In this document: positions 5,800 to 58,200 of the stretch, one piece after another
Numbering within the stretch: position 1 is the stretch's first letter
Layout: each line of letters begins with the position of its first letter
IMG/VR virus record: IMGVR_UViG_3300025132_000021
Coordinates: 1 to 64,000 of that record
Length of the DNA stretch: 64,000 bases
Source: a virus
Reading direction: 5' to 3' (one strand)
Program-made: the position numbers and the translations under genes
The notes under the pieces: model-generated
Databases searched by the model: none
Seen by the model: the letters and a program-made list of their open reading frames with translations, nothing else
What the model was told of the DNA's origin: nothing

Positions 5800-8514
5800 A
5801 TGGTTAGACGCTATGAGGTTTCAGACCTTGATGTTGAAGACATCATAGTATTTGCCCCTAATGCTCATTTGGATTTAGGTTATACACCTTATCCATCGCT
5901 TTTTGAATTAGAGCAAGAAATCTTAGCAGGCGTTCACACTAATTCATCTGGAGAAATTGGTTGCCCTGCTTGCGGTTGTATTGATTTATTCTTGAAAGAA
6001 AGAACTGCGAAAGGAGTTCGTTATCGTTGTATGTCTTGTATGTATGCTACTGAATCGGAGTTTGAATCTGTTAAATCTCGCAAAGACATAACTTTAGCAC
6101 AATTTGGTTTAGGCTTTGAGTGTGCAATATGCGGTGAGGACATAGATTCTTATAATCACGATACAGTTATGCGTCATGTGCGTAAATGTCGTCAAAAAGA
6201 AAATGAAAACTTTTCTGCGGAAAACATGATGTTAGAATTAGGACAGCAAGACCCAGACGACCCAAACAGAATGTGGGGTCCAGACATTATCAGCCCGATA
6301 TTTCCCTTCAAAGGTTATGAAAGACCCACGGAAGAAGTAAGAGCAGATTTACAAAAACATTTGGTTGGACTGGAAATCAGAATGTATGGTCCTCAAAACG
6401 AATCCGAGGCATTAGGCATTAGACAACCGATGGATTGGTGGAAAGATATTGGTTTCAGTGAGTTTCAACCAGCAGGAACTATGGGAAGAGTCACAGGAGT
6501 TTCCATGTCTAACCCAAACCGACCAAAAATCATTGGAGTATGGGTAACTATCATCAGTGGAGGCACGGCCAAACACCCTGTTGGTTCAAGAGTATGGTTT
6601 CATGTTAAAGATTCCTATTTTCCTGATTCTATGAGGCTTGGTTGGACACACGGAGATTATGTCGGCAATCCCAAGAGAGAAGAATACCTAAGAGGCAAAG
6701 GAATTACTAAAGGTTATGAAGCAGAAGATAAACCAGTAGTCCCTCGTTATGTTTATCATGCCACTCCTCAAGCATATTGGGAACAAATTAAGGAACAAGG
6801 TGGCATGACACCACAAATTGGCTACATGACATATCGGGCATTTTTACCCAGATACAAAAAAGCCCACATTGGTCAAGACATTTCTCCTGAACACTATAAA
6901 CAATGGTTGGTTAAGGAACTTGGAGGTCTGAAAATCTGGGTTACTGGACCAAGCAAGGTATCGGTGTATGCCAGTATGATTGAACCCATGAGTTTCTTAC
7001 GAGACAATGTAGTTTTGAAAATTGATACAGAAGGTTTAGACTTTGAATACTATAATTACGATGAGTTTTTTACGCAAAAACCAATCCCCTTGTCTGCGAT
7101 TGAATTAGAGTGGTTGATGGACGGTGAGCGAAGTGATGAAGAATACCCTGATTATTTGTTGCCTACTCTTGACCCTTCATTAGAATCCCTGTTAGAAGAC
7201 GAACCTGAATTGTTGGAAACTCACCCAGAGTTGTTCCGAGATGAACTTTATGAAAGATTTGTGGCGGCGGCTGAAGATAACCAAAGTGATGATTTAATCT
7301 GGGACGAAGAAGCAGGTTTGTTTTACGATTATGTAGAAGTGCCACAACCCGATGGTGAACTCATTGTGGTTTATTGGATTCTCAACGAAGAATTAGACCA
7401 AGTAGGAAAAGCACAAATAAGCCTATTCAACGATAATTTGGAAATTGACAGTATTTTCATTGAACCTTACTATCAACGCCGAGGAATCGCCACTTCATTT
7501 GTTAATCATGTAGTCAATTATTGGGACAGCGAACTTTTAAGATTTTCTGATGCTGTATCTGATGAGGGCGCAGCATTCATTGATTCATTCGCTGCTGAAG
7601 ATAGTTTAGACTATATGAACTATCTCAATGATTTACGAACTTATCCTGAACTACGAAACTTTACTGATGAGCAACTGCTGGCTATGGGTATTGATTGTTT
7701 AGCATTACAAACTGCCAACCGAGAAAAGTTTGATGCTGAAGATAACTACGATTCTACTTATGGAGTCAAGCAAGCCAAAATCCGCAGACGACTCAAAAAG
7801 AAAATCAAGAAGCAGGCAATTATGGGAACAAAGGCGGGTCAATGGTCGGCTCGTAAATCACAAGAACTTAAGCGACAATATGAGGCAGCGTGTCAGCGAG
7901 CAGGTCTAAAACCATACAAGGGTCAGAAAACCAAAAAGCAACAAGACCTTACGGATTGGTCAGACCAACGCTGGCGCACAGCATCAGGTAAAAAATCATC
8001 TACCACAGGCGAGCCATATTTCCCTGCTAAAGCAGTGGCCGCCCTCAAACAAAAAGGACTTTATTCAAAGGCCAAAAAACAGAAACAAGCCGCCACTAAA
8101 GCAGGCAAACAAAATGCCCGCTATTCCGATGACATTAGAAAAGTTGTTAAACAATATCGTAGTGAAAATATGCTTAATCTAAGCATAAATCCATTTGAAG
8201 ATGTAAAATGGGAAGATGATGAAAGTTTAACAGATAGATTAAGGAGAGAAAATGATTCATGGAGAGAAGATATTCAGTGGAAGGCTTGGGAGTCAAAACC
8301 AAGTAAGTTATCAAAAACTTTTATCTTTGAAGAAGAAGAACCATGGATAGAACTTTGGAATCTGGTGTTCTTTTCTGATGCTTTGGCTGAAGCCTCTGGA
8401 GTAGATATTGAATCAGTTGTCAAACAAAATAAAGTTATCATAACTATTGATAAGACAACCACACCACTTGACTTTGTATTATTAGAATACATCAATGAAT
8501 ATATGAGGTTATAA
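5800..8514 (+). CDS. 904-aa multi-module polyprotein-like protein: Zn fingers, ADP-ribosyltransferase-like, GNAT and DUF5872-like basic modules
   Basis: CPAC/CMSC/CAIC..H..C; YVYHATP..IWVT..VVLKID; IDSIFIEPYYQRRGIAT; GTKAGQWSARKSQELKRQYE; modules separated by FSAE/YEAE/AAAE/FAAE/FDAE/YRSE. Confidence 0.75.
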   Translation: MVRRYEVSDLDVEDIIVFAPNAHLDLGYTPYPSLFELEQEILAGVHTNSSGEIGCPACGCIDLFLKERTAKGVRYRCMSCMYATESEFESVKSRKDITLAQFGLGFECAICGEDIDSYNHDTVMRHVRKCRQKENENFSAENMMLELGQQDPDDPNRMWGPDIISPIFPFKGYERPTEEVRADLQKHLVGLEIRMYGPQNESEALGIRQPMDWWKDIGFSEFQPAGTMGRVTGVSMSNPNRPKIIGVWVTIISGGTAKHPVGSRVWFHVKDSYFPDSMRLGWTHGDYVGNPKREEYLRGKGITKGYEAEDKPVVPRYVYHATPQAYWEQIKEQGGMTPQIGYMTYRAFLPRYKKAHIGQDISPEHYKQWLVKELGGLKIWVTGPSKVSVYASMIEPMSFLRDNVVLKIDTEGLDFEYYNYDEFFTQKPIPLSAIELEWLMDGERSDEEYPDYLLPTLDPSLESLLEDEPELLETHPELFRDELYERFVAAAEDNQSDDLIWDEEAGLFYDYVEVPQPDGELIVVYWILNEELDQVGKAQISLFNDNLEIDSIFIEPYYQRRGIATSFVNHVVNYWDSELLRFSDAVSDEGAAFIDSFAAEDSLDYMNYLNDLRTYPELRNFTDEQLLAMGIDCLALQTANREKFDAEDNYDSTYGVKQAKIRRRLKKKIKKQAIMGTKAGQWSARKSQELKRQYEAACQRAGLKPYKGQKTKKQQDLTDWSDQRWRTASGKKSSTTGEPYFPAKAVAALKQKGLYSKAKKQKQAATKAGKQNARYSDDIRKVVKQYRSENMLNLSINPFEDVKWEDDESLTDRLRRENDSWREDIQWKAWESKPSKLSKTFIFEEEEPWIELWNLVFFSDALAEASGVDIESVVKQNKVIITIDKTTTPLDFVLLEYINEYMRL

Positions 8515-8516: not shown

Positions 8517-9308
8517 ATGAAATCTGCTTCAGTTGTTTTCGTTACCGCCGATAATCTGATAGGTTTAGGACTTCGTGGAAGTGGTTTAGAATCTCCTTTG
8601 ACATGGGCTGCCATAGGAGGACATCAAGATGATTATGAAACATTACATCAAACAGCCCATCGTGAAGTTTGGGAAGAATTAGGAATTAGAGTTCCCAATC
8701 GTTTAGAATACTTAGGTCATGTTGGAGAAAATTATGTTTTTGTTTGTCGTGTTCCAGATACATTTTCGGTGCGTTTGAATTGGGAGAATCTTGACTTTCA
8801 ATGGAAAACTTTATCAGAGTGGCAAAACCATAAACTACACCCAGAACTGCGTCAAGTGATTCATTCACGCACATTCTTGGCAGAACAGGAGTTTGAAGCC
8901 ATGCCTGAAGAAACAGAAGGTTATTATGGATTTCCTAATGAAAAAGGTGAGTTTGCAGACACAGAAAAGTGGCTCAAAGAGAATTACTTTCCCAAAGACC
9001 CAGACAGTTATTACGATTACGAACCCAAGACTCGTGAAGTAGAACTCCCAAGAGGAGGGACTAAAAACTTTCCTATTAACTGGTGGTTCATCTCGCAAAA
9101 CCTTGAGTTCTGGGAGACCATTCTTGGAATCCCATTCACAGGTAAAATCCCCAAAGTTAAGCAAAAGAAGAGAGTCCGTGGTCCGCACGAGTCTTTCAAT
9201 CCATTTGCACCACAAGCAAAAAAGCAACGAACATCAGATTATTTAGATGAAATTATGAGGCAAAGGCAACAACGACTTTATGATGATTTGAGAGAGTGGG
9301 AAAAGTGA
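8517..9308 (+). CDS. NUDIX hydrolase fused to an unknown C-terminal module
   Basis: Nudix box GGHQDDYETLHQTAHREVWEELGI; junction FLAEQEFEA. Confidence 0.85.
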   Translation: MKSASVVFVTADNLIGLGLRGSGLESPLTWAAIGGHQDDYETLHQTAHREVWEELGIRVPNRLEYLGHVGENYVFVCRVPDTFSVRLNWENLDFQWKTLSEWQNHKLHPELRQVIHSRTFLAEQEFEAMPEETEGYYGFPNEKGEFADTEKWLKENYFPKDPDSYYDYEPKTREVELPRGGTKNFPINWWFISQNLEFWETILGIPFTGKIPKVKQKKRVRGPHESFNPFAPQAKKQRTSDYLDEIMRQRQQRLYDDLREWEK

Positions 9309-17137: not shown

Positions 17138-17148
17138 TTTAAGTATCA
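17138..17148 (+). promoter_or_regulatory. TTTAAGTATCA promoter box
   Basis: 30 nt before ATG 17168. Confidence 0.8.
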
Positions 17149-17167: not shown

Positions 17168-17629
17168 ATGTTGGTAGCACTAACAGGCACAATGATTGGA
17201 TTTGGAGCCTTCGGATATTCTATTGTTAAACTTAAAGACCGTCAATGGCGTGAAGCCGCAATCGCTATGGTTGGCGGTGCTGCTGTGCTTTCCATTGTAG
17301 GTTGGAATCTTAATCGTTTGAAGGACGATGCAACGAAAGTTTTCGGTGCAGACTACATGAAGCGTAATGAAGTTGAAAAAGTTCTTGATGAATCTGCTGG
17401 CAAAATTGTCGGTGTAACTTTCATTAAGAAAGATGGTTCAGAGCGCACACTTGTTGGCAGGATTGGCAAGAGATACTCCCCAACGGGAACTGACCCGTTA
17501 GGTGGCAAAGCCGCCCGCCGAGGTCGTGGACTATTCACAATTTATGATATGCAAAAGCAAGCCTTCCGCATGGTAAATATGGATACAGTTATCAGCATTC
17601 GTGCTGGTGGAAAGACCTACCGTGCGTGA
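17168..17629 (+). CDS. Two N-terminal TM helices plus WYL_2/DUF2693-like Sm/SH3 barrel
   Basis: VTFIKKDGSERTLVG...IYDMQKQAFRMVNMDTVISI; FGAD junction. Confidence 0.7.
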   Translation: MLVALTGTMIGFGAFGYSIVKLKDRQWREAAIAMVGGAAVLSIVGWNLNRLKDDATKVFGADYMKRNEVEKVLDESAGKIVGVTFIKKDGSERTLVGRIGKRYSPTGTDPLGGKAARRGRGLFTIYDMQKQAFRMVNMDTVISIRAGGKTYRA

Positions 17630-19032: not shown

Positions 19033-19248
19033 ATGGACTCATTTTGGATAGCACAAATGCAACAGTATGCCAGTAGATATGCACAATTCGTAGAAATCTT
19101 AACTACTAAGGTTCACATGACTACTGAAGATATTTTACCACTTTGGCTTCATCTTAATGAACTTGTTTGTGATTGCGAAGGATGTCGTGAAGAAACAGAT
19201 TGCATAATTCATATTGATTTTGATTTTGATGATGAAGACGAGGATTGA
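19033..19248 (+). CDS. Small acidic Cys-containing protein
   Basis: CDCEGC..C..H; upstream of DP1. Confidence 0.5.
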   Translation: MDSFWIAQMQQYASRYAQFVEILTTKVHMTTEDILPLWLHLNELVCDCEGCREETDCIIHIDFDFDDEDED

Positions 19249-19253
19249 TTACT

Positions 19254-20588
19254 ATGCGAGAAATTAGAGGTTGGAATCCCACCCGCATTCACGAGGAACT
19301 CAAATTAGAGCCTCGTCAAATTGCTGATGCGTGGTCTGCCAAAGCCTCGGATTATGCTTATGAACTTTCCACAGGTGTTTCCGTTGGTGAAACCGACCAA
19401 ACAGGAAAGATGGAAGATATTATCAATTTATTTCAGAATCGTTTAGAGGTTATTGAAAAGATTCTCAAGAATGAACATGGATTTCATAAGTTTGGAGACA
19501 TTCGTGAAGTAGACCGCAACCGAAGAAAGTTTATTCGCCATCAAGTAGCCGTAATTGGTATTGTAACTGATATTAGGCGAAGCCGAAGCGGAGGTCGTAT
19601 CGTAGAATTAGAAGACCGCACAGGCACAATGACAATTTTTATTCGCAAAGATGACCCCGCAGCAGGCACATTAGTTAATGATGATGTTATCGGAGTAGTT
19701 GGTAATTTTGCAGACAAAGGAGATATGTTCTTTGCTAATCGGGTTCAATATCCCGAAGTATTGCCCACACATCAAAATCGTGGAGGTTTAGATTTTGACC
19801 CAGTATCAGTGGCTTTTGCTTCCGACATCCACATGGGTTCTAAAAAGTTTCTGGAAAAAGATTGGGACAAGATGATGAAATGGATGAACTCAACTGATGA
19901 AACAGCCCAGAATATCAAATACTTTGTTTTATCAGGAGATGTAGTAGATGGAGTAGGCGTTTATCCCGGACACGATAGAAACTTGTCTATGAATGATGTT
20001 TATGACCAATACGAGTATTGCGCTCGCAAATTAGATGAATTGCCAGACCACATCACACCAGTAATCCTTCCGGGAAATCACGATGCTGTCCGACCTGCTG
20101 AACCCCAACCTATGCTTGAACCACTAATTCAACAAAGGTTTAATTCCACAGTTCACACAGGCAATCCTGCTCGCATCTATCTAAATCATGGTCAAGAATC
20201 AGACCCATTTGAAATACTAAGTTATCACGGCAAAGGCATTGACGACATGGTTCCAAGAATGGCTCATGTGACTTATGAAGCCCCAGCCGAAGCCATGAAA
20301 GAAATGATGAAGAAACGACATTTGGCTCCAATGTGGGGTGAACGCAACGCTCTAAGTCCCGAAGTAGAAGACCAAATGATTATTCGTGATGCACCAGATT
20401 TATTCGTTACAGGTCATACCCATGCTCATCAAGTTGAGTGGTATCGTGGCACACCCTTAGTAGTATCATCTACTTTCCAAGGCGAAACAGATTTCATGCA
20501 AATGCTGGGTTATCAGCCCAAGAAATCTTTGCTTTCAGTGTATAATTTACAGTCCCGAAGTAGCCGAGTTATCTCTTTTGAGTCCTAA
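19254..20588 (+). CDS. polD1: DNA polymerase D small subunit DP1 (OB fold plus calcineurin-like 3'-5' exonuclease)
   Basis: SDIHMGSKKF, GDVVDGVGVYPG, PGNHDAVRPAEPQP, YHGKGIDD, RHLAP.WG, TGHTH, TFQGETDF. Confidence 0.95.
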   Translation: MREIRGWNPTRIHEELKLEPRQIADAWSAKASDYAYELSTGVSVGETDQTGKMEDIINLFQNRLEVIEKILKNEHGFHKFGDIREVDRNRRKFIRHQVAVIGIVTDIRRSRSGGRIVELEDRTGTMTIFIRKDDPAAGTLVNDDVIGVVGNFADKGDMFFANRVQYPEVLPTHQNRGGLDFDPVSVAFASDIHMGSKKFLEKDWDKMMKWMNSTDETAQNIKYFVLSGDVVDGVGVYPGHDRNLSMNDVYDQYEYCARKLDELPDHITPVILPGNHDAVRPAEPQPMLEPLIQQRFNSTVHTGNPARIYLNHGQESDPFEILSYHGKGIDDMVPRMAHVTYEAPAEAMKEMMKKRHLAPMWGERNALSPEVEDQMIIRDAPDLFVTGHTHAHQVEWYRGTPLVVSSTFQGETDFMQMLGYQPKKSLLSVYNLQSRSSRVISFES

Positions 20589-24384: not shown

Positions 24385-25212
24385 ATGGGCTGGACAGTCG
24401 TAGAACCTTTATCACCGGGTCTATTCCAAATTGACCCCGCTATTTATGATGCTGAAACGCAAGTTTTTGAAGTTGCAGTTCTCGGCCAAACAATTAAGAA
24501 GATTGTTAAAGCCATTCAGGAAAAGATTGGCAAACAAGTTGCCGAAAAGGTTCAAAAGCAAGTTGCTGAAAAAGTTGGTAAAGAAGTTTCCCAAGAAGCA
24601 GCCGACCAAGCCACACAAGAGGTTATGGAAGAAGCCTATGAACAGGCTATGAAAAAGAATAATCCAGATTTCTGGGCTTGGAAAGAAGGTGGAGAAGTAG
24701 GCACAAGACCTGCACTTAAAGTTTCAGGAAATGCTTTAGATAACGCAGTTGCTAAAGAAGCCACAGAATTAGCCAGCCAAAAACTTACTAAAGAATTAGG
24801 AGGAGAAGTTGGCGAAGATGTAATCGGTGAAGTTGGAGAGAAAACGGTTAAAGAAATGACTCCTCAACAATTAGCACTCAAAGATTCCGTAGACCGATTA
24901 GCAGGAAAAGGTGTTTTCGCAGGTGCTTTTGGATTAACTGCATTTGCGATTCTAAGTCCAATTTCCGAGGCATTTGGAGAGGGTTTCAGCGACATTATTG
25001 CAGCCTTAAGTGGAGAAGATTGCGAAGATATTGAAGTAGAAGAAGATAAACAGCGATGTCAAGACCGTGCTGACCAGAAACTTTTACTATTCGGTGCAGG
25101 CAGTTTAACCTTAGTGGGACTACTTGGTGCATTTGTCATCGCTCGTTTAATTCCTAAGAAACAGCCAGAGGAAGAAGAAGAAGAAGAAGAAGAAGAACAA
25201 GCCGAGGAGTAA
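24385..25212 (+). CDS. Membrane protein with C-terminal TM helices and poly-Glu tail
   Basis: TTTAAGTAG at 24355; hydrophobic segments; YDAETQVFE motif near N terminus. Confidence 0.75.
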   Translation: MGWTVVEPLSPGLFQIDPAIYDAETQVFEVAVLGQTIKKIVKAIQEKIGKQVAEKVQKQVAEKVGKEVSQEAADQATQEVMEEAYEQAMKKNNPDFWAWKEGGEVGTRPALKVSGNALDNAVAKEATELASQKLTKELGGEVGEDVIGEVGEKTVKEMTPQQLALKDSVDRLAGKGVFAGAFGLTAFAILSPISEAFGEGFSDIIAALSGEDCEDIEVEEDKQRCQDRADQKLLLFGAGSLTLVGLLGAFVIARLIPKKQPEEEEEEEEEEQAEE

Positions 25213-25214: not shown

Positions 25215-26219
25215 ATGGCTGAACTCAAAGGCTGGACTTCAGTAGGAGACAAAGTTTTCGGAACTTATGGTTCTGGAACTACTTCTGATAAAACTAACTT
25301 TGAATCAAAAGTTTTCCTCAAGCGTGCAGGAAAGAATCAAGCATCTAAAAAAGTTTCAGGTTCAGAAGGTGGAACATCTATTGTTTGGCAAGATGCAAAA
25401 CATGATGATGAACTCCATTGGACAGCCAAGACCCTTTGTGATAATGACCCAACAGCAGATAGAGTAAATGTTGTTTTAAGTTATTACGACCCAACCTACC
25501 TCGGTCAATTATCGGACCAAATTATCAAAACTTTGAACGATAGTGAGTTAGAACAAGTAATGGTTGGAGATAGTTCAGTTATTGAAAAGAAATTAGAAAC
25601 TATGTTGGACATCAACCGTGCTTTGAAACAAGTTTATTCAACCACCGTAGTCACTGATAAAGATGGTATCGCAGAAGGCGTTATACCATTACCTGCCGAT
25701 TATCCTTATTCTGAATACACATTAACCATGCACTACGGTTATTCTGGACTCGCAGAAAGAACAGATTCCGATAAAGCATGGGATTTTTGGTTAAATGAAG
25801 TAGGTATTATGGTATTAGAAATAGTTTTAATCATTATTGCTACCGCCCTAACAGGAGGGGCTGCTTTAGCATTTGGAATAGCAGCCACAGTAGTAGGTGT
25901 GGCCGACCTTGCACTTATGGCAAGCCAATATACATCTAATGGATTTGGTGCGATTGATGAAAACAACCGTGGTTGTTTATTCCCAGCAACAGGTTGGAAT
26001 CATAGTTATGCCATAGTTCTAAACGAACCTGTTCCTGAAGAAGAGGGAGGTGGCAACGAAATTAGTAATGAAATCTTTGAGCAAATTAGTGTTCCTGAAG
26101 CCACTCAAGAAAAAGCAAAGCAAATTATGAGTGATTATTCCTTTGCTCAAATTGCTATCGTAGGCTCTGCTACTTTGGCAGCCATTATGCTACTTTTATT
26201 TGGAGGGCGTAAGAAATGA
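25215..26219 (+). CDS. Membrane protein with internal hydrophobic hairpin and C-terminal TM
   Basis: VGIMVLEIVLIIIATALTGGAALAFGIAATVVG; C-terminal IAIVGSATLAAIMLLLFGGRKK. Confidence 0.75.
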   Translation: MAELKGWTSVGDKVFGTYGSGTTSDKTNFESKVFLKRAGKNQASKKVSGSEGGTSIVWQDAKHDDELHWTAKTLCDNDPTADRVNVVLSYYDPTYLGQLSDQIIKTLNDSELEQVMVGDSSVIEKKLETMLDINRALKQVYSTTVVTDKDGIAEGVIPLPADYPYSEYTLTMHYGYSGLAERTDSDKAWDFWLNEVGIMVLEIVLIIIATALTGGAALAFGIAATVVGVADLALMASQYTSNGFGAIDENNRGCLFPATGWNHSYAIVLNEPVPEEEGGGNEISNEIFEQISVPEATQEKAKQIMSDYSFAQIAIVGSATLAAIMLLLFGGRKK

Positions 26220-27205
26220 TGAATAATCCTTTTCAAATGCCTTTGCTTAATTCCAAGGCTCAAAAGTTTATTGCTGAAGAAACTTTACCGGGTTTCAATA
26301 ATAAAATTGAATTATTAGAAGATAAAACCAAAGAGCGAGACCCTAAGAAACTTTGTGGTTCTAAACACGCAGTTTGGGTCGGGATTGAGCCACCAGCCAA
26401 GCCTAACAAGATTATTCCATTTAAGAACAACATTGTGATAGCATTTTGGGCTAACGATACCTCTGGAGGCGGTATTCTTGACCCGGGTGCAGTTATTGGA
26501 GGCATTACAACTTTAGTCACTGACCCTGAAGAATACAAAGACACTATTGATGCAGGATTACAAGCAGTTTGGGAAAGAGATAATGACTCTTTCGGTGATT
26601 ACGCTGAAGCATGGGGCTATACTATTCTTTACAAAGGAATTGGTGAACCATTTAGCAATACATCAAAGGCTGTGAATGCAGGTTGGGATTATGTTTCAGA
26701 TTGCGACGAGCGTTGGTATTGTGCCGAAAGTTATGAAACAGACACAGATTTCCTCGGTTTTGATTATCACAACAAAGTGGCTAATGCACATACAATTTCT
26801 ATCAAGATTACCAATGAATACGAAGGTGTGCTACGCACAGTTCACGACACCACTTTAGCAGGAACAACAGAAGTTTATGGTTCAGCCCAAAACCCGATGC
26901 CAGCCCTTGCTTATTTCACAATTGATTCTCCCGGTGTTTGGAGAGTCAGAGTCAAATCTAAAGCATCAGGTTCTTGTGCAGACCCACGATTAGACATTAA
27001 CGAAAGATTTACTGTTCCCACTCCAACTGGCTGGGGACAAACCGACTCTCCTGCGGAGAGTCAGATTACACCCGCCGCACCTGTGGAAATTACCACTCAA
27101 ACCAGCACCGTAGAAGTCGCTGAAAAAACTGGCACGACTCCTTTAGTTTTATTAGGTGCGACAATCGGTGTAGGCGGATTGTTAGCCTATGCTTTGCTTA
27201 GGTAG
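26216..27205 (+). CDS. Tail-anchored membrane protein
   Basis: C-terminal TM LVLLGATIGVGGLLAYALLR. Confidence 0.75.
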   Translation: MMNNPFQMPLLNSKAQKFIAEETLPGFNNKIELLEDKTKERDPKKLCGSKHAVWVGIEPPAKPNKIIPFKNNIVIAFWANDTSGGGILDPGAVIGGITTLVTDPEEYKDTIDAGLQAVWERDNDSFGDYAEAWGYTILYKGIGEPFSNTSKAVNAGWDYVSDCDERWYCAESYETDTDFLGFDYHNKVANAHTISIKITNEYEGVLRTVHDTTLAGTTEVYGSAQNPMPALAYFTIDSPGVWRVRVKSKASGSCADPRLDINERFTVPTPTGWGQTDSPAESQITPAAPVEITTQTSTVEVAEKTGTTPLVLLGATIGVGGLLAYALLR

Positions 27206-34322: not shown

Positions 34323-35000
34323 ATGGTGCTTGAGTTTTATCCCATAGAGTTTGATGATGACTCGGTAGGATTCGTAGCAGTAGAGTCAGAGTTTGAACCT
34401 TGGTTAATTGCAGCCGTAGGTGTTGGTTTTGAAGATATGAGTTATTCTGTTCTTGAAGAAGACGATGATGGCTTAGTAGAATTGATTATTGACGGGGACG
34501 ATTTTGACAACCTTCAAGATTTGTATGCAGAATATCAAACCTATGGTTGGGCAGTTATTGATGACGATGATTATGCAGAATGGGCTGAAGCCTTTTCAGC
34601 CGAACAAATGAGTGATGAAGATTATCTCTTAATGATTATAGAGTTTGATGAGAAAAATCCACAACCTGCGAAACCTTATCATATAAAGTCAAGTCTTTAC
34701 GAAGATGGCACAGTCCCTTCAATGGCATTCTTTTTGGGTGGGAAAACGGTCAATCCAAAAGTAATGCTCAAAGCAATTAGAGAAGGCAGAGTTGCTCGCC
34801 TCAATCGTAATGCCGACACCAAAGGCTACTATCGTGGAATCAATCTTGACCGCTTTTCTGGTAATAAATCTAACCGCCGAAACTTTTCACAAACTCGTCG
34901 TAATCTTAAGAAAGATATGTTCGGTTCAGTATCCCTCGGCAGCATCCTCACAGGTGTTGCAGCCCTCGGAACAATTTTGTATCTGGTTAATAGGAAGTGA
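34323..35000 (+). CDS. Tail-anchored modular protein (acidic module / FSAE / basic module / TM)
   Basis: C-terminal TM LGSILTGVAALGTILYLVNRK. Confidence 0.7.
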   Translation: MVLEFYPIEFDDDSVGFVAVESEFEPWLIAAVGVGFEDMSYSVLEEDDDGLVELIIDGDDFDNLQDLYAEYQTYGWAVIDDDDYAEWAEAFSAEQMSDEDYLLMIIEFDEKNPQPAKPYHIKSSLYEDGTVPSMAFFLGGKTVNPKVMLKAIREGRVARLNRNADTKGYYRGINLDRFSGNKSNRRNFSQTRRNLKKDMFGSVSLGSILTGVAALGTILYLVNRK

Positions 35001-36196: not shown

Positions 36197-37912
36197 ATGC
36201 CTGTCTTTTTGATTACTGGATATGATGGCGAGGATGCCATCTTTTACAGAGAAACTCCTCACCATAATGGAGTTGGGCCGTTGTTAAATCAAGCAATTCG
36301 TGAACTATCTCAACTCCCTAATTCAATGATTATTATTGAAAGTTTGCATGAAGATTCACCCGAAACTCAAATGGAAAAGCATATTCCTTTTGCAGATTAT
36401 GAAGAGTTTTATGTAGATGAGTGGGACGCAGAATCTACTAAAAAGTCAGGTAAAGTAATTACCATGTCTGGCAAACCACACAAACCTCGTAAGTTGAAGC
36501 AAGACCAAGGCATTAGCCCAGAAGAAGCAATTCAAAGAATAGCATTTCGTAGTGAAACAAGTGATTGGGTAATTGAAGAAGTTAGTATTTATGATTCTAC
36601 TTATGGCAGTAAGGCTGATGGTTCACTTTACAATCCAGATTCTAATGAACGCATAGAGTTTGAAGAAGCAGATGTTCGCATGGATTATTACATCCCACCA
36701 ATGGAAAACATTTATGTAGATTATGACGAAGACGAGGACGAAGACGAAGATGTTGAGGCGGTTGTAGAAGAATCCATGATGGAAGCCGAAGGATTCTATG
36801 ACGAGGATGGCATAGGTCCTAAGTTTATGGCGGAAGGAAAAAAGAACTGTGGCTGTGGTCAAGACCCATGTAAGACTTACGGTGCAGAAACTTTTGAAGC
36901 ACCCAAAACCATGACCAAAACTCAAGCCAAGAAGAAGTTTATTGCTTTGGCTCAACCCTACTGGATAAAAGCACTAACTAAATTGAAGGAAGGCTATATC
37001 CAAGAGAAAAAGGATGACGACAAACGGAGAGGCGGTGAATCTGAATACTTTGAACAGTATGATTATGATATTGAAGACACAAACACCTATCTCAAGATTG
37101 CTAAATCTCAATCCAAGATTATGAACATCATTGGTTGTGATGATGGAGATACAGTCCTTAGAGAAATGATTCCTGACGGATTTTACCACCTTATCAACTA
37201 TCCACGAGAAGATTATGATACTTGGGAAACCACAATGGCTTATTTTGAAGGACCCAAAACAATTAAAAAACAATTGAAAGCCTTGTTGCCTTTTATTGAG
37301 GGCAAAGTTACGGTCAAGCCAAAGTCAAAGGCTAAGAAACCTAAATACTATCTTCATTTTGGTGAGGGTTTTACTGCTGATAAATGTGTTTATACTGGTA
37401 AAAAGTATGCTATGAACACAATTCGTTCCGCCAAAGCATTAGCAAATCAGATGTGGAATCTCGGACCTATGCCCGGTATGAATCGTGGATATGCAGATTT
37501 TACCATCAACGGTGAACATTATGGCAATATAGTAACATGGGAAACAGAAATTATAGATGCCGACACGGGAGAAGTGGTGGATTATTGGACACCATCAAAA
37601 GAACAAAAAGCCGCATATAAAAAGAAGGCTAATGCTATCAAAAAGGCTGCTAAACCTGCGGCAAAGAAACCCAAGCCCAAGCCACGGGCAAAAGCCTCTG
37701 CTAAGAAATCTAAGGCTAAGGCTAAAGCCAAGACTGGCCGCAAAGCACCTACAATTTCAGCCACCAAGCGAAAGATTGGAACTCGGATGCGAGGCAACGA
37801 TGGTAAAATGTGGGAAGTCAAGAAATCTGGAAAATCACAACGATGGATGGCTGGTGCAGAAACTCAAGAGTTTCGTTCACCATTAGATGACTCTTTTGAT
37901 GAAATACTATGA
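36197..37912 (+). CDS. Polyprotein-like modular protein with acidic modules and Lys/Ala-rich (H1-like) C-terminal region
   Basis: WDAE, FRSE, MEAE, FMAE, YGAE, AGAE junctions; KKAAKPAAKKPKPK; RKAPTISAT..GTRMRGNDGKMW..QRW. Confidence 0.75.
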   Translation: MPVFLITGYDGEDAIFYRETPHHNGVGPLLNQAIRELSQLPNSMIIIESLHEDSPETQMEKHIPFADYEEFYVDEWDAESTKKSGKVITMSGKPHKPRKLKQDQGISPEEAIQRIAFRSETSDWVIEEVSIYDSTYGSKADGSLYNPDSNERIEFEEADVRMDYYIPPMENIYVDYDEDEDEDEDVEAVVEESMMEAEGFYDEDGIGPKFMAEGKKNCGCGQDPCKTYGAETFEAPKTMTKTQAKKKFIALAQPYWIKALTKLKEGYIQEKKDDDKRRGGESEYFEQYDYDIEDTNTYLKIAKSQSKIMNIIGCDDGDTVLREMIPDGFYHLINYPREDYDTWETTMAYFEGPKTIKKQLKALLPFIEGKVTVKPKSKAKKPKYYLHFGEGFTADKCVYTGKKYAMNTIRSAKALANQMWNLGPMPGMNRGYADFTINGEHYGNIVTWETEIIDADTGEVVDYWTPSKEQKAAYKKKANAIKKAAKPAAKKPKPKPRAKASAKKSKAKAKAKTGRKAPTISATKRKIGTRMRGNDGKMWEVKKSGKSQRWMAGAETQEFRSPLDDSFDEIL

Positions 37913-38652: not shown

Positions 38653-40365
38653 ATGAACAAAGAAAATAAACTAAAGAAGACATTTTTAACGATTTTAACA
38701 GCAATTATGCTTGCTATGAGTGCAGGTGTAGTTACTGGTGAAGGTTCCGACCCTCTTGACCCATCAGACGGTGGCGCAGATTGGGATGGCGACGGTTTGA
38801 CTAACAAAGAAGAACAAGACGCTGGAACTAATATGAACAACCCAGATTCAGACGGTGATGGACTCCCAGATGGTTGGGAAGTTGCTAACGGCCTAAATCC
38901 AACTAACGGTGGCGATGCTAACGGCGACCCAGATGGAGATGGTCTAACCAACTCTCAAGAATATGCACAGGGAACTAACCCAAACAATGCCGATACTGAC
39001 GGCGATGGCAAACCTGATAACACAGATGCCTTCCCTAACGACCCTAACGATGGAGAATACTCCGACTCCGATGGAGATGGAATCCCAGACGCATACGACC
39101 CAGATTATCAAGAGTCCCAAGCGGGTTCTGGTAATGGAGGCACAGAAGGCGGTGGCGAGTCTGAAGACAATGGACAAGGCGAAGGCCAAGGTCAGGGTCA
39201 AGGACAGGGACAAGGACAAGGACAGGGGCAAGGCCAAGGCCAAGGTCAGGGTCAAGGTCAGGGTCAGGGTCAAGGACAGGGCCAAGGTCAAGGACAAGGA
39301 CAAGGGCAGGGCCAAGGACAAGGGCAAGGCCAAGGTCAAGGTCAAGGACAGGGACAGGGCCAAGGCCAAGGTCAGGGTCAAGGACAAGGCCAACAACAAG
39401 GTCAAGGTCAAAGTCAAGGACAAGGACAACAAGGACAACAAGGCCAGCAAGGAAACCAAGGACAACAAGGACAGGCTGGACAACAAGGCCAACAATCTGG
39501 ACAACAAGGTAACCAAGGTCAGCAAGGCCAACAAGGGCAACAAGGTCAGCAACAAGATAACGGGCAAGGCCAGCAACAACAAGGAGGTCAGCAAGGCGGT
39601 CAGCAATCTGAACAACAAGCAGAAGAACAGAACGGCCAAAACCAAAATGGTGCTAACCAACAACAGCAAGGTCAAACCCAGAATGGTCAGCAAGGCCAGC
39701 AAGGTCAGCAAAATGACCAGCAACAAGGCCAACAGTTGGATAATCAAGACCAAAATGGAGATAACGACAATGATGGCGACGGTATTCCTGATGACTTAGA
39801 CAATGATGATGATAACGATGGAATCCCAGATACTATGGATGATTCACCTCAAGACCATGATAACGACGGCATTGATGATGCTGAAGATAATGATGATGAC
39901 GGAGATGGAATCAACGATAATGAAGAAGTCAATGATGGCAACGACAACACAGATATTTATGACCACGACAATGACGGTATAGAAGACCGTTTTGACTTTG
40001 ACATTGATAATGACGGAATTGACAACTGGAATGACCTGTATGAAAACGGGTCAGATGCCAGCCGAGACCACGACAATGATGGTATGGACGATGGTGTAGA
40101 CACAGACGACGATAACGACAACATTCTTGATGTTGATGAAATCGGCGGTGCTTGGTCTTCCTATCGCTACGACCATGATAACGACAACATTTGGGATGCA
40201 ACAGACCTTGATGATGATAACGATGGTCTATCAGACTGGTTTGAGAACAATGATGGCAACGATATGACAGGTCAATTTGACCATGACAACGATGGCGTTA
40301 GTGATTACTTAGACCTTGACGATGATGGCGACGGTATTCTGGACGAGTTTGAAAACGGCGTTTGA
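38653..40365 (+). CDS. Secreted protein with TSP3-like Ca-binding DxDxDG repeats flanking a Gly-Gln low-complexity domain
   Basis: Signal peptide; DSDGDG/DHDNDG/DDDNDG repeats; (GQ)35 then Q/G/N-rich. Confidence 0.85.
   Translation: MNKENKLKKTFLTILTAIMLAMSAGVVTGEGSDPLDPSDGGADWDGDGLTNKEEQDAGTNMNNPDSDGDGLPDGWEVANGLNPTNGGDANGDPDGDGLTNSQEYAQGTNPNNADTDGDGKPDNTDAFPNDPNDGEYSDSDGDGIPDAYDPDYQESQAGSGNGGTEGGGESEDNGQGEGQGQGQGQGQGQGQGQGQGQGQGQGQGQGQGQGQGQGQGQGQGQGQGQGQGQGQGQGQGQGQGQGQGQGQQQGQGQSQGQGQQGQQGQQGNQGQQGQAGQQGQQSGQQGNQGQQGQQGQQGQQQDNGQGQQQQGGQQGGQQSEQQAEEQNGQNQNGANQQQQGQTQNGQQGQQGQQNDQQQGQQLDNQDQNGDNDNDGDGIPDDLDNDDDNDGIPDTMDDSPQDHDNDGIDDAEDNDDDGDGINDNEEVNDGNDNTDIYDHDNDGIEDRFDFDIDNDGIDNWNDLYENGSDASRDHDNDGMDDGVDTDDDNDNILDVDEIGGAWSSYRYDHDNDNIWDATDLDDDNDGLSDWFENNDGNDMTGQFDHDNDGVSDYLDLDDDGDGILDEFENGV
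39184..39393 (+). repeat. (GGN CAR)x35 coding repeat (Gly-Gln)
   Basis: 210 nt with synonymous codons mixed. Confidence 0.9.
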
Positions 40366-40728: not shown

Positions 40729-40935
40729 ATGCGTAGTCGTGAAGATGTCTATGGAATGCTTAGAGAAGCAGTAGATTTGCAGGAAACATGGCGTTATGCC
40801 TATGACCAAGCCAAAGCGCAAGGCAACAAGGAACAAATGAGGATTTGTGTTCGCAATCATAAAGCATTAGAAGGAGTTATCAAAACCCTTCGGTGGACAC
40901 TTGAATATGCAGGTATTAGTAGTCCCTTAATGTAA
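40729..40935 (+). CDS. Small helical protein, paralogue A
   Basis: RNHKALEGVIKTLRWTL. Confidence 0.75.
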   Translation: MRSREDVYGMLREAVDLQETWRYAYDQAKAQGNKEQMRICVRNHKALEGVIKTLRWTLEYAGISSPLM

Positions 40936-40975
40936 ATCTTTATTAAGGTGCTTCAACAAACGAGGGTTGAAAACT

Positions 40976-41227
40976 ATGGCTGAAATGAGCGACCATCAAG
41001 ATACGAACCATTTTACTTATGACCGTAATTGGGACGAAATTGAAAATATGTTAGATGCTGCCGAGCGCATGATGAACAAATGGGTTAATCGTTTTTACGA
41101 GGCTCAAGTCAAAGGCGACCGTAGAACTATGAAAGATTGCGCTCGTAATAAAAAAGCCTTAGAAGGTGTTATCAAAACACTCCGATGGACATTGGGCGAT
41201 AAGAACATAGAACATCCATTAAATTAA
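40976..41227 (+). CDS. Small helical protein, paralogue B
   Basis: RNKKALEGVIKTLRWTLGD. Confidence 0.75.
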   Translation: MAEMSDHQDTNHFTYDRNWDEIENMLDAAERMMNKWVNRFYEAQVKGDRRTMKDCARNKKALEGVIKTLRWTLGDKNIEHPLN

Positions 41228-41270: not shown

Positions 41271-42203
41271 ATGGACGCAAGAACAATCGCAGGCGCAGGA
41301 CTACTCATTGGTGGTGGTCTTGTCGGCTACAAGGCTATGAAAGATTTGGCAGGACTTGGTTGCTATGGACCAGCCGCTTACCTAACACTCGGACTCACTG
41401 GAATTGGCGCAGGATTATTCCTGTTTGGCAAACTACGAACAGACGCAGTTAAGCAAAGAGTTGCTGATGTAAAAGAAGAAGTTTCCGCAGTAATGAACTC
41501 TGAATACTACCCTTGGCTACCTGAAGGTATGGATGCTGGCGATGTAGTAGTTCCTAACTCCTATGGAGACACTTCCTCTGCTGCTGGTATGCCTGATGGC
41601 TCTGGTCGTGGAGTTCCACAATGGTATGGAAGCGCAGAAGGCCGAAAATACGGCAAGCGTGACCGATACACAGACCGTTGGGGCAACGCTCGCTACTTTA
41701 CTCGTCGCAAGGACGGTTCAATCGTAACTTCAGTCAATATCGCTGGAAAGCGTGGTGCTGTTGCTAACGACCGCCGACAAGGTGCTAAGACTTACAAGCC
41801 TTCTGGCTACCGTCAGATGGGTGATGCAAAGCCAGTCGGACAACTTGAGAGAGCCATGAAGAATATGTTCGGTGCAGATACCGAAGCAGGACTTCCAGTT
41901 ATCCCAGATTCCTACGGAACAAACTCTGCTCTGGATTCAGGACAAGGAGTTCCAGTTTGGTATGGTTCCGCAGAATCCAAGTATGGCAAACGCCAACGCT
42001 TTGACCATATCAAAGGCAACAGCCGATATGTCGCTCGTGATACTAAGGGAAGATTTATCTCCAATGTATCAGTAGCAGGTAAGCGAGGTTCAATCGCACA
42101 GGACAAGCGTAAGATGGCAAAGTCCTACAAGCCTGCTGGCTACCGCCAGATGGGTGATGGAAAGCGTGTTCCACAATCGGCTCGTGCTTCCAAGAATGTG
42201 TGA
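41271..42203 (+). CDS. Membrane-anchored precursor with duplicated spacer plus basic module
   Basis: Two N-terminal TMs; two copies of P.SYG..SG.GVP.WYGSAE followed by KYGKR..AGKRG..YKP.GYRQMGD. Confidence 0.8.
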   Translation: MDARTIAGAGLLIGGGLVGYKAMKDLAGLGCYGPAAYLTLGLTGIGAGLFLFGKLRTDAVKQRVADVKEEVSAVMNSEYYPWLPEGMDAGDVVVPNSYGDTSSAAGMPDGSGRGVPQWYGSAEGRKYGKRDRYTDRWGNARYFTRRKDGSIVTSVNIAGKRGAVANDRRQGAKTYKPSGYRQMGDAKPVGQLERAMKNMFGADTEAGLPVIPDSYGTNSALDSGQGVPVWYGSAESKYGKRQRFDHIKGNSRYVARDTKGRFISNVSVAGKRGSIAQDKRKMAKSYKPAGYRQMGDGKRVPQSARASKNV

Positions 42204-42581: not shown

Positions 42582-43082
42582 GTGTCAATTCGTCGGCAAG
42601 GCTGGGAATGGGCTGTGGCAGACCTTGGAAACTTACCTGCCAAGGTTAAACAACTTGAAGTTCGCCCACAATCAGTTTTTTATTCAGGAATTGGTGATGC
42701 TACACAGGTAAATCGTAATCGCACAGGTGATGATGAGTATATCGTTCTACAATATGTTGGTTCTACACCGGGTAATTGGGGCGGTTTATTTAACAAAGGT
42801 CGTGATTGGAAACCCGGTGGTTTCGTCAATATCCGTATCGGCACAACAGCCTATTATCAAACTTTAGATGGTAGAGATTCACAAGGACTAACTGGCACAG
42901 CCGCACCCTATCCTATCTCATCTTCTGCTTCACCAGTTTTGAAAAACTGGATTCCAATTCAAATCCCGCCCGGAACGGATTGGGACATTACTTATTTCTT
43001 AGGCAACGCTTTAGTTCCACTTACGGAGGAGTTTCCACAGTTGCCGATTTCAACATTTACAATTACTGAAGTTCCACCATGA
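42582..43082 (+). CDS. Beta-rich hypothetical protein (possibly structural)
   Basis: 166-aa ORF immediately after upstream stop. Confidence 0.6.
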   Translation: MSIRRQGWEWAVADLGNLPAKVKQLEVRPQSVFYSGIGDATQVNRNRTGDDEYIVLQYVGSTPGNWGGLFNKGRDWKPGGFVNIRIGTTAYYQTLDGRDSQGLTGTAAPYPISSSASPVLKNWIPIQIPPGTDWDITYFLGNALVPLTEEFPQLPISTFTITEVPP

Positions 43083-55235: not shown

Positions 55236-58200
55236 ATGGTAGATGAAGTAGAAGATATGGGACTAACTGTTCCAGAAGATGTTGAAGAAGTAATGGAAAC
55301 TTTAATTGAAGAAGTCGTTGAACCCACACCAGTTGAGCCAAAACTTTCAGGTTCAATCAAAGAACAACTCACTGCATTAGTTGGCGAAGATGGTGTTAGC
55401 ACTTTAGAAGAAGTTGCTAAATCTACTTACAAAGATTTAGATGAGTTCGCTAAGATTACAGTTATTGATACTGCTCTTGATTCTTTAGAGATTTTTACTG
55501 GTAAGAATCGTAGTCCTTTGAACATGGTTGCTTTGGATGCTGATGGAAACACTATTGACTTAGATGATGCAGGTATGGAACTTGCTGACAAAGGCTACGA
55601 AGGTTTCTCTTTAGATTCAGTCTTTGAGACCACCGTTTTTGAACCCGGATTTAGCCCAGAAAATATGGGAACTGCTCTCAAAGAAGTATTCCGTGCAAAA
55701 CTTACTTTAGGAGATTGGGAAGCCAAGCAAAAAACTCACACTGAACTACTTGACCCAGTGCGTAAGGCTATGACTCAACTCGGAGAAGTTTTCGGTTTTG
55801 ATAACTATGAACACTTAGAAATGTTCTTTGCAGCATGGTTGATGAAAGATTCTACTTGCCGTTTGTCTGGTATTCCCGGAACTGGTAAGACCACGGTTAT
55901 TGAATCAGCAGCAGTTCTGTTGTGCAATTCTTATGGATTCAACAAACAATCTCGTTTCGTTGCCCCAATCCGTGCTGACCCATATACTATGGAAGAATTA
56001 TTCGGAGAGAATCGTTCCTATGTGGCTCAAGAATACCCATCAGGTATGGAATATAACCTAACTTACTCAAACTCTGCTTATGAAACAGTTCGCAACGATT
56101 GGGACGAATGGCGTTTCACCAGTTGGTCTCGTCCCGGTGGTCGCAACCGTTCAGGTGCTTATCTTTATGATATGTCATTCTTGCACCCATCAGGTAAGCG
56201 TGATGGAGAACCATTCCAGAAAAAAGCCTTGGAAATTGGAAACTTTTACAAGTTGTTGAACAATTGTTATGTCGTTCAGGCTCCAGTTCAAGGATTTACT
56301 GACCCATCAGAAGGAAAGTCAGAAGGTAAAGAACTTTTGAAACAATTAGAGGAAGACCAAATCCAAACCGTAGTAGCACCTATCAAGTTGCTTAACGCTG
56401 ATGGAACTTTGGCTGATTTTGGAACACCATTGGTGTATGATGTTTATGATGTCCGAGGCAACAAGCATCAATTCCCAATGCAAGTCCGTTTCCCAGATGT
56501 AAATATGGCGGCTGAAACTGAAAACACTCAAAATTACAAGTGGATTTTAGAACAAGGAGATGCTACCGAGTTTATTCAAGATGGATACGGTTTGTTCACT
56601 GATGCTGGCCGTTCCGAAGGATACGGATTCCGTCAATATCTTATTGAAAACTTTGTAGACTTGCGAAGCAAAGATGCTCGTATTTCAGGAAAGTGGAAGC
56701 CAATTCTTGAAGAAATGCTTGAAGAAATTGGTGTGGCAAAGATTGACTACGAAAAGCGTGCTGATGAAGTATTGTATGGTATTGAGATTCAACAATCCAC
56801 TGTCACTGATAAAATCCGTGATGCTCAGATTTCAACTTATGAGTTTGAACCAGTGCCTCGTCCAATTGTTACTCAACCTATCAAGTTCTTTAACGAAGCC
56901 AACCGTTCACAGGCTGGTGTAGAAGACGCAGTTCTGGGTCTAATTGCCGAGCGAAAGGTAGAATACCGTGGTAAATCTTTTGATTCTCCAAACTTTGTTG
57001 CTTGGATGGACACTAACCCTCACCAAAAAGGAAACGACCTTGCGTTTATTGACCGTATTGATATGGAACTTTTGTTTAAGTCTATCTCTCTCGGTGAACG
57101 CTACTCACAATTGAGTGGTCGTTTCGGTGGTGGCGGTGGATTAGCCCCACAAGAACAAATTGTTTCTAAGTTAGCAGCAGGTGGCGACATTGGATTCACT
57201 GCTCTAAGATTCGGCAATCTTGCTAATCTGTGGCAATTCGTTCAGAAACAAGTTGGATTCGCACCACCGGGTCAGCAACCCGGGACCAGCACTTACGATG
57301 CTTTGCGTGAAATCTCTTATATTTCAGTTCTCTTCACCCAGCGTTTCCTTCCTCGCAACACCACCCTAAAGTCAGGAAATGAGACATTCAATGTAAGTGC
57401 TAAACAGGATTTCAATGAATCTCCGCTTATGGATTTCTCGGTGACTACTAATACTAACGAAGAAGGAAAGTCCAACATTAAACTTCAATCTGATATTAGA
57501 ACAACTTATTCCCAGCACACACCATCTAACATTGACCGTGTTCTTGGTTTCCGTTTCACTAACTCTTTGGTAAAACTTTCGTCAGCATTGGCCTTCCTTC
57601 GTGGAAAGTCTTATGTTACTCGTCAAGAAATCCTTGATGGGCTACCTTATGTGACTGCTCACCGATTAGGTCGTGCTAAATCCAGTAAAGGAGAAATCCA
57701 AGGTTTGCCAGCAGGTCTTCAGTTCAATAACGAACAAGAGTGGATTCGTGAAGCCATTGTTAATGGTTATCTACTTCAAGAAACCAACATTGGTTTCAGT
57801 CAAGGTGGATTACCACTTATGGACATTTGGGATTTGTATTACCGCCGATGTGTAGATGCACTTAAGAGCGCACCTGCACTCTTTTGGTATGAACAACAAG
57901 TGTTGATTCCATTACATAAAGCATTGATTGAAGCAGGCGCAGATGTGGGCAACAAGTTCACACCAGTTCACTGGCATATTGCTACTATGGTTGTTCAAAA
58001 CGAAAAGTCTGCAACTATGCAAAGTTTGACTAAGCCTTACCGAACCTACGCTCACGGTGATGATTACCAATCTAACTACAACCATTACCTAACTCGTGTT
58101 TTCAGCAATCCTAACCCTTCTAAGACTACGGCTGACCAATCATTATATGATTACTACCAACTTCGTGGTGAAATCTGTTCCGAACCTAACTTGTTCTCGG

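What the first reader, a model, noticed from the sequence alone, without database searches (positions are those of the whole stretch)
5800..56516. Genome-wide [FYWM]-x-[AS]-[ED] processing code, concentrated in genes behind TTTAAGTA promoters
Seen: the same motif, often followed by x(1-3)-F-E/R, marks composition switches in many other orphan proteins. Examples: FLAE-QEFEA (8874), FGAD (17342), YDAE-TQVFE (24445), FSAE (34593), six sites in 36197-37912, MNSE/YGSAE/FGAD/YGSAE in 41271-42203, FAAE (50480), and MAAE within the AAA insertion (56505). Five carriers (5800, 17168, 34323, 36197, 41271) sit directly behind TTTAAGTATCA boxes. Inference: a co-regulated (late?) set of precursor proteins processed by one protease, a system I do not know to be described for archaeal viruses. 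Caveat: matches also occur in enzymes (TBP FEAE, 5'-3' exonuclease YDAESYE).
Basis: partly seen in the sequence, partly recalled or inferred. Interest (0 to 1): 0.88.

Follow-up and report, generated by a model that had tools for sequence, protein, structure and literature searches.

The report
Cassette tag in giant archaeal virus
Dozens of probable virion proteins of a large, apparently undescribed marine archaeal virus are strings of swappable cassettes separated by a four-letter tag (F/Y/M-x-A-E). The tag is most likely a cut site for a viral protease, and the only conserved candidate is a zinc JAB/MPN enzyme, a type for which I found no report of a role in virion maturation.

Summary
The motif is real but narrower than stated. 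The signal is [FYM]-x-A-E: 69 sites against 26 expected genome-wide, and about 3x in three related genomes. The W, S and D variants are mostly chance, and about three quarters of broad-pattern matches in the window are expected at random. The motif is at background in replication and metabolic enzymes and 3-5x enriched in orphan and membrane-anchored proteins. It is in-frame only, uses any codons and sits at module edges. Strains from two studies lack one 324-codon cassette exactly between two copies. The promoter link is weak: TTTAAGTA is this lineage's ordinary TATA box, and relatives without it keep the motif. The genome is a 160-kb linear virus with inverted terminal repeats, PolD and single-jelly-roll capsid-like genes. 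No gp21/S78-type protease was found. The best candidate is a conserved tail-anchored JAB/MPN metalloprotease with an intact JAMM site, whose 92 distinct homologous tails all carry the tag. Cleavage is inferred, not shown; a non-cleaved docking tag is the main rival. First readers noted the motif in other windows of this genome, and the anchored JAB in one other genome.

The parts
5770..5777 (+). TATA box TTTAAGTA(TCA), 30 nt before the ATG (leaderless-type spacing). Same box at 17138, 34293, 36166 and 41240 before the other carriers, and before non-carriers at 21717, 24107, 35145, 35691, 40699
   Evidence: 25 boxes in the window vs 3.4 expected, all on the + strand
5800..8514 (+). 904-aa polyprotein-like carrier: Zn fingers | FSAE 6211 | unknown | YEAE 6715 | ART-like (by eye) and GNAT | FAAE 7588 | FDAE 7729 | DUF5872 basic module | YRSE 8155
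   Evidence: Pfam GNAT 502-576 and DUF5872 664-763; the FDAE and YRSE sites are kept as FAAE/LGAE and YRAE in relatives
8517..9308 (+). NUDIX domain (27-116) ending at FLAE-QEFEA (8874)
17168..17629 (+). N-terminal hydrophobic anchor | FGAD (17342) | WYL_2 Sm-like domain
   Evidence: site kept in G001; the G002 homologue of the domain is preceded by several sites
24385..25212 (+). Membrane protein with N-terminal YDAE (24445)
   Evidence: FYSE in G001
26216..27205 (+).
   Evidence: aligned to MESE and FGAE in G001
34323..35000 (+). Acidic module | FSAE (34593) | basic module | C-terminal anchor
   Evidence: no homologue in G001-G003
36197..37912 (+). 571-aa cassette protein: FRSE 36545, MEAE 36779, FMAE 36824, YGAE-TFEAP 36878, final AGAE; WDAE and FTAD are weaker
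36881..37864 (+). 324-codon cassette flanked by a 12-bp direct repeat GGTGCAGAAACT (G-A-E-T); absent in frame in other strains
   Evidence: contigs of runs X5 and X8 (two studies) join 36879 to 37852; the joined frame reads YGAE-TQEF
41271..42203 (+). Two N-terminal hydrophobic helices | MNSE 41493 | mobile GVPxWYGSAE module | basic module | FGAD 41868 | second copy
   Evidence: sites are MGAE and FGSE in G001; the module is shared with genes at genome 86810 and 90734
50273..51016 (+). Core gene of the group; FAAE (50480) between the N-domain and the coiled-coil/anchor part
   Evidence: F[AS]AE in all four genomes at 37-60% identity
51561..52691 (+). Core acidic protein with YLAE (52284)
   Evidence: YTAE in G001
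42582..43082 (+). Context: paralogue of the single-jelly-roll capsid-like family (main copies at genome 81469, 82163, 98320, 99024); carries no motif
56505..56516 (+). MAAE in the AAA insertion: probably a chance match
   Evidence: not conserved in G002; the enzyme class is at background
59241..60575 (+). HExxH metallopeptidase-like gene of the MoxR-vWA block: rejected as the general processing enzyme
   Evidence: no match in G003, whose flanking genes are adjacent and which keeps 3x motif enrichment

Best explanation
[FYM]-x-A-E (L or K tolerated at P4, D or S sometimes; often a tandem with T/S/E-F-E-A) is a protein-level tag marking the ends of cassettes in the membrane-anchored and internal virion proteins of a giant tailless archaeal virus. 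Shown: the tag's enrichment, its class restriction, its position at module edges, and gain or loss of cassettes at the tag. Inferred mechanism: precursors are tethered to the assembling virion membrane by a short hydrophobic helix. During maturation a virus-encoded protease cuts after the Glu, freeing cargo enzymes (PolX, GNAT, NUDIX, WYL, WGR) and basic DNA-binding peptides (DVNP-like, DUF5872) from their anchors and from each other. The most likely enzyme is the tail-anchored JAB/MPN zinc protease (genome 123202-123999, outside the window), which carries the tag around its own anchor. The tag-coding DNA doubles as microhomology, so new cargo can be added in frame with a ready cut site.
For: About 3x enrichment in four genomes and about 5x in three more loci. 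Enzymes 0.9-1.3x vs orphans 2.8-3.7x and membrane proteins 3.6-5.0x. Shared-module ends pile on the Glu: 14 exactly, 30 within 3 residues vs 10 random. Pfam domains are bracketed: PolX 187-344 between sites at 177 and 343; DVNP starts at the site at 136. Subsite-like profile: P3 lacks Pro/Val/Ile/Thr, P1' favours T/G/D/E/S. In-frame only, any codon, Ile/Asn not accepted. Strain deletion exactly between two tags. JAB: fold matches MPN proteins; E31, H80, H82, S97, D100 and also R93 invariant down to 30% identity; present in all four genomes; 92 of 92 distinct tails carry the tag vs 11 shuffled; neighbours of distant JAB homologues still show TFEAE/YSAE (6 vs 2.6). Precedent for cutting after Glu at short motifs: T4 gp21 L/I-X-E (PMC9026906), SPN3US gp245 A-X-E with C-terminal self-cleavage (PMC10052503).
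Against: No cleavage data exist. In JAB homologues the tag is more constant after the hydrophobic helix (80 of 92) than before it (38 of 92), so both sides of the anchor would have to be reachable. The three most distant full-length JAB homologues lack the tag in their own tails. Characterised JAMM enzymes cut ubiquitin-like or CD-NTase conjugates, not Glu sites (PMC5512222; own knowledge). The capsid-like proteins are not substrates, unlike in T4 or SPN3US. Many orphan genes stay unassigned, so another viral protease or a host enzyme is not excluded. The pile-up of alignment ends is partly inflated because the shared tag itself extends local alignments.
Confidence: 0.5

Rival explanations
1. 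The tag is a non-cleaved docking or packaging signal: a multivalent short linear motif that binds a scaffold or core protein and recruits cargo into the particle. The JAB protein is just another passenger, for example a de-SAMPylase.
For: Tandem copies at 5-residue spacing and up to nine core copies per protein suit avidity. The tag occurs on both sides of an anchor and within 2-8 residues of some C-termini. Gly preference and loss of beta-branched residues at P3 suggest a turn rather than an extended strand. T4 capsid-targeting sequences show that such peptides can target without being cut (PMC9026906).
Against: Single tags sit at the edges of unrelated enzymes and between anchor and cargo in both orientations. 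No binding partner was identified. Proteins already membrane-anchored would not need a second targeting signal.
Confidence: 0.27
2. The tag is cut after Glu, but by a different enzyme: an unrecognised viral protease among the orphan core genes, or a host protease, as for SSV1 VP1, which is processed at a conserved glutamate.
For: About 20 core genes have no family. The S77 and C57 searches had silent controls. An archaeal precedent exists (PMC5748691).
Against: No other core protein shows an obvious catalytic set in four-genome alignments. S78, C48 and ClpP searches with working controls were blank. The HExxH gene is missing from G003.
Confidence: 0.2
3. The motif is a DNA-level cassette recombination site (integron-like) that merely translates as Phi-x-A-E.
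For: A 12-bp direct repeat flanks the cassette missing in other strains; mild GAA/TTT codon bias.
Against: No enrichment in other frames or strands; 111 different 12-mers among 172 sites; ATG accepted but ATH not; adjacent sites share codons no more than unrelated sites do (32% vs 29%); no tyrosine recombinase in four genomes.
Confidence: 0.05
4. The tag is a site of covalent modification or ligation (for example transpeptidation or conjugation) rather than hydrolysis.
For: Strict A-E core; JAMM enzymes work in conjugation systems (own knowledge).
Against: No E1/E2, ubiquitin-like or ligase gene among the families listed (only the top 25 were shown each time).
Confidence: 0.08

Closest known systems
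T4 gp21, phiKZ gp175 and SPN3US gp245 prohead maturation (PMC9026906, PMC10052503)
   Same: A short motif ending in Glu, repeated across many internal virion proteins; cargo enzymes packaged as precursors; the protease processes its own C-terminus.
   Different: The motif is aromatic/Met at P4 and Ala at P2, not L/I-X-E or A-X-E. The capsid-like proteins carry no site. No clan SH protease was found. The virus has a single-jelly-roll-like capsid protein and anchored substrates.
Polyvalent proteins of phages and conjugative elements (PMC5512222)
   Same: Strings of unrelated conflict domains (GNAT, NUDIX, ART-like, nucleotidyltransferase) predicted to be processed and delivered early.
   Different: Here a discrete conserved delimiter is present. 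No fused zincin MPTase, and no MuF/ArdC-N leader was seen. The delimiter also marks small anchored proteins.
Varidnaviria maturation proteases: adenain (M/I/L-x-G-G), vaccinia I7 (AG-x), ASFV S273R (GG-x) (own knowledge)
   Same: Tailless jelly-roll virions whose membrane and core proteins are cut at a short motif; hydrophobic P4 and small P2 as for adenain.
   Different: P1 is Glu, no clan CE protease was found, and the host is archaeal.
JAMM/MPN+ proteases (Rpn11, PfJAMM1, CBASS Cap3)
   Same: Fold and E/HxH/SxxD site; Cap3 reads a linear tail with no ubiquitin fold (own knowledge).
   Different: A private family (56 representatives) with a longer HxH-SxxD loop, an invariant Arg and a C-terminal membrane anchor; substrate unknown.
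Portogloboviridae (SPV1) and Sphaerolipoviridae/Halopanivirales
   Same: Single-jelly-roll capsid fold (best match SPV1), HerA/FtsK-like ATPase, linear genome with inverted terminal repeats (as sphaerolipoviruses, PMC12643093).
   Different: 160 kb vs about 30 kb for sphaerolipoviruses; own PolD, TBP, TFB and MCM; I found no report of such a processing code in these families.

Membership tests
T4 gp21/phiKZ-type prohead protease system | Clan SH prohead protease gene | tested here: inconclusive
   S78 blank in four genomes with a working control; S77 blank but its control was silent
T4 gp21/phiKZ-type prohead protease system | Motif L/I-X-E or A-X-E (P3-P1) | tested here: not met
   The motif has Ala at P2 and F/Y/M at P4; Ile, Leu and Val are depleted at P3
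T4 gp21/phiKZ-type prohead protease system | Major capsid protein is an HK97-fold substrate | tested here: not met
   The capsid-like family folds as a single jelly roll; 2 of 120 homologues have a core site
Polyvalent proteins | Multiple unrelated effector domains in one chain | tested here: met
Polyvalent proteins | Fused or linked zincin MPTase | tested here: not met
   The one HExxH gene examined is standalone in a MoxR-vWA block and absent from G003
Polyvalent proteins | MuF or ArdC-N leader domain | tested here: inconclusive
   Not among the Pfam families shown, but the lists were truncated
JAMM/MPN+ metalloproteases (candidate enzyme) | MPN fold | tested here: met
   Foldseek BRCA1-A complex E 4.9e-4, probability 0.99; Rpn11 Z 7.7 (rmsd 3.9, 139 aligned), PfJAMM1 Z 7.6
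JAMM/MPN+ metalloproteases (candidate enzyme) | Catalytic E, HxH, SxxD | tested here: met
   Invariant in close and distant full-length homologues
JAMM/MPN+ metalloproteases (candidate enzyme) | Peptidase activity and substrate | not testable with these tools
   Needs an assay
Clan CE (adenain/I7/Ulp1) virion maturation | Clan CE cysteine protease gene | tested here: inconclusive
   C48 blank with a working control; C57 blank with a silent control
Clan CE (adenain/I7/Ulp1) virion maturation | Gly at P1 (GG-x, AG-x) | tested here: not met
   [FYM]xAG 13 vs 19 expected
Single-jelly-roll archaeal viruses (Portogloboviridae/Halopanivirales) | Single-jelly-roll capsid protein | tested here: met
   SPV1 6oj0 Z 8.6, rmsd 3.2, 135 aligned, the only match at Z 8 or more; model pLDDT 74
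Single-jelly-roll archaeal viruses (Portogloboviridae/Halopanivirales) | HerA/FtsK-like packaging ATPase | tested here: inconclusive
   Conserved P-loop ATPase at genome 64730; family assigned by eye
Single-jelly-roll archaeal viruses (Portogloboviridae/Halopanivirales) | Linear genome with inverted terminal repeats | tested here: met
   99-bp exact repeats; G001 likewise
Single-jelly-roll archaeal viruses (Portogloboviridae/Halopanivirales) | Internal membrane in the virion | not testable with these tools
   Only inferred from about 40 hydrophobic-anchor proteins per genome

The most novel reading that the evidence does not exclude
A widespread lineage of giant tailless marine archaeal viruses uses a membrane-anchored JAB/MPN zinc protease with Glu specificity as its virion maturation enzyme. 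It cuts a universal Phi-x-A-E code that also serves as the in-frame exchange point for cargo cassettes. This would be a further enzyme class for virion maturation, next to the assemblin-like and adenain-like ones.
Probability: 0.3. Interest if true: 0.9.

Novelty: new variant of a known kind. Interest (0 to 1): 0.78.

Why it matters
It gives a sequence-readable rule for which proteins of an abundant, uncultured ocean virus group (1,669 capsid homologue clusters) are probable virion cargo and where their domains begin and end. It also names one enzyme and one motif that can be tested in vitro without culturing virus or host. If JAB is the cutter, JAMM enzymes gain a substrate class unrelated to ubiquitin, single-jelly-roll archaeal viruses gain a maturation protease, and the long-predicted processing of polyvalent proteins gets a concrete code. 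The cassette loss at the tag shows how such a virus adds or drops cargo in frame.

Tried and rejected
Protease families searched without a match: S77 and C57 (controls silent), S78, C48 and ClpP (controls rang). The HExxH gene at 59241 was rejected as the general enzyme (caveat: G003 is a fragment). The PHROG 'terminase' hit is the P-loop ATPase at genome 64730. An Atlas search of core orphan 96369 gave nothing. A PDB sequence search with the JAB profile gave nothing useful. Predicted complex of JAB + Zn + a tandem-tag peptide: no verdict, score 0.07, no evidence either way. A DNA-level site was tested and rejected as the primary cause. Viral-contig searches found only three relatives; no JAB match in GenBank phages. 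Literature searches found no description of this virus group or motif; the library is incomplete. Weak structural matches of JAB to NCLDV proteins such as ASFV F317L (E 2.9e-3) are a lead only.

Full report
Setting. The window is bases 1-64,000 of a 160,342-bp virus record with 99-bp exact inverted terminal repeats. It encodes PolD (both subunits), TBP, TFB, a class II ribonucleotide reductase, an ArsA/Get3 ATPase and, by eye, PCNA, MCM and a HerA/FtsK-like ATPase. A paralogous family (window 42582; genome 81469, 82163, 98320, 99024) folds as a single jelly roll whose best match is the SPV1 capsid protein (Z 8.6; Foldseek probability 0.98). Homologues are abundant, and the runs that hold this DNA are almost all marine metagenomes. 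The nearest organism-named TFB is from a Thermoplasmatota genome (54%), so a Poseidoniales-like host is an inference. Three related records of 166, 150 and 123 kb were fetched. I found no paper on this group.

Observation. In the window [FYWM]x[AS][ED] occurs 55 times against 42.5 in shuffles. An unbiased scan of all gapped triplets puts F.AE, M.AE and Y.AE near the top of their class. [FYM]xAE is 69 vs 26 genome-wide and 20 vs 9 in the window, while W.AE.SD.AD and [LIV].AE are at chance. The same 2.9-3.1-fold excess holds in the three relatives and about 5-fold in three further loci. The matches in TBP and the AAA insertion look like chance.

Promoters. TTTAAGTA is strongly over-represented and sits about 30 nt before ATGs. 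It fronts about 50 genes, including TBP, a glycosyltransferase and a PP2C phosphatase, so it is the lineage's ordinary TATA box. Among non-enzymes the motif rate is 4.2x behind the box and 2.9x elsewhere (p=0.085), though carriers are more often box-fronted (17 of 43 vs 19 of 120, p=0.002). The densest region is genome 64-98 kb, around the capsid-like genes. Relatives L128 and L129 keep the motif with other TATA sequences. The link is thus to a gene class, not to this box, and timing is untested.

Anatomy. Carriers are of three types: anchor-tag-cargo (17168, 41271), cargo-tag-anchor (26216, 34323), and long strings of cassettes (5800, 36197; up to nine core sites in G003 proteins). Pfam domains are bracketed closely: GNAT, DUF5872, NUDIX and WYL_2, PolX and a DVNP-like peptide. 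Ends of modules shared between proteins fall on the tag's Glu 14 times exactly, and within three residues 30 times against 10 at random (partly inflated because the tag itself aligns). Orthologues exchange F, Y and M at P4 and vary P3 while keeping A-E. The profile is E at P6; F/M/Y at P4 (L and K tolerated, I and N not); G/D/E/A/S at P3 with no Pro and few beta-branched residues; A, E; then T/G/D/E/S and often F-E-A, a 5-residue tandem. Selection is on protein: only the coding frame is enriched and all codons are used. Contigs from two independent studies lack 972 nt of gene 36197, exactly between YGAE and the final AGAE, which share a 12-bp repeat; several other contig divergence points lie at tags. 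Cassettes are therefore gained or lost at the tag, probably by microhomology, since no integrase is encoded.

The enzyme. No S77, S78, C48, C57 or ClpP protease was found (two controls silent). The HExxH gene at 59241 is missing from G003, which keeps the motif. The one conserved protein with a protease site is at genome 123202-123999: present in all four genomes, among the most conserved unannotated core genes, MPN fold, with E31, H80, H82, S97, D100 and R93 invariant down to 30% identity. Its tail is highly variable, yet all 92 distinct tails carry the tag: 38 before and 80 after the hydrophobic helix. Distant homologues lie in 56%-GC contigs that share no other detectable gene with these genomes; their anchored neighbours still show TFEAE and YSAE (6 vs 2.6), although those JAB tails lack the tag. 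That JAB cuts the tag is inference. The invariant Arg as a Glu-binding residue, and the parallel with the ubiquitin tail L-R-G-G (hydrophobic P4, small P2), are my own reasoning.

Mechanism and rivals. Most likely (0.5) the tag is a maturation cut site that frees cargo from anchors and from each other, JAB being the enzyme in about 0.3 of that 0.5. A non-cleaved docking signal (0.27) fits the tandem copies and the sites on both sides of an anchor. T4's capsid-targeting peptides do both jobs (PMC9026906), so the two readings may combine. Covalent modification (0.08) and a pure DNA site (0.05) are unlikely.

Comparison. It works like T4/phiKZ/SPN3US head maturation (Glu at P1, many internal substrates, self-processing protease; PMC9026906, PMC10052503) and is built like polyvalent proteins (PMC5512222). 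It is a member of neither: different motif, capsid-like proteins not tagged, no clan SH protease found and no fused MPTase. In archaeal viruses the nearest precedent I found is SSV1 VP1, processed at a conserved glutamate (PMC5748691).

Verdict. A real, family-wide, apparently undescribed cassette code. New variant of a known kind, with a 0.3 chance of a new class of maturation protease. Interest 0.78.

Noticed in passing
window 46473-47618: Virus-encoded ArsA/Get3-like ATPase, conserved in all four genomes, alongside dozens of tail-anchored proteins: a possible viral insertion chaperone.
   Followed up: partly
whole genome; window 19245-20588 (DP1), genome 106624-110190 (DP2): 160-kb linear virus with inverted repeats that encodes both PolD subunits, TBP and TFB; homologous contigs reach 236 kb. 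Relatives are binned in bacterial MAGs (L128-L130).
   Followed up: partly
upstream of window 18724(-) and 20889; genome 128306, 142345, 146142, 155597: A second promoter-like class (GTTTTATATCAsTGA / GTTTATGTArGTG) lies before helicase, primase and small HTH genes: a candidate early class.
   Followed up: no
   Followed up: no
window 53134-63399 and genome to 64689: MoxR-like AAA, HExxH and vWA gene block (by eye); present in G001 and G002, absent between the flanking genes in G003.
   Followed up: partly
window 41271-42203; genome 74163, 86810, 90734: A mobile peptide of about 30 residues ending GVPxWYGSAE recurs about ten times in four proteins: a possible docking module.
   Followed up: partly
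genome 123202-123999 (L004:3202-3999): After the post-anchor tag, JAB homologues keep a short His/Trp-rich end (WHE, HFWK, HWW) that could be a propeptide or cofactor.
   Followed up: no
window 38653-40365: Secreted-type TSP3-repeat protein with a long GQ/Q tract; ends 79-87% identical across all four genomes.
   Followed up: no
window 40729-40935 and 40967-41227: Adjacent small paralogues sharing ALEGVIKTLRWTL, conserved in all four genomes; function unknown.
   Followed up: no
genome 148617-151278: Three tandem C5 cytosine methylase paralogues.
   Followed up: no
genome 64730-65914 and orthologues: The packaging-type ATPase has a C-terminal anchor, preceded by tags in G001 and G002.
   Followed up: partly
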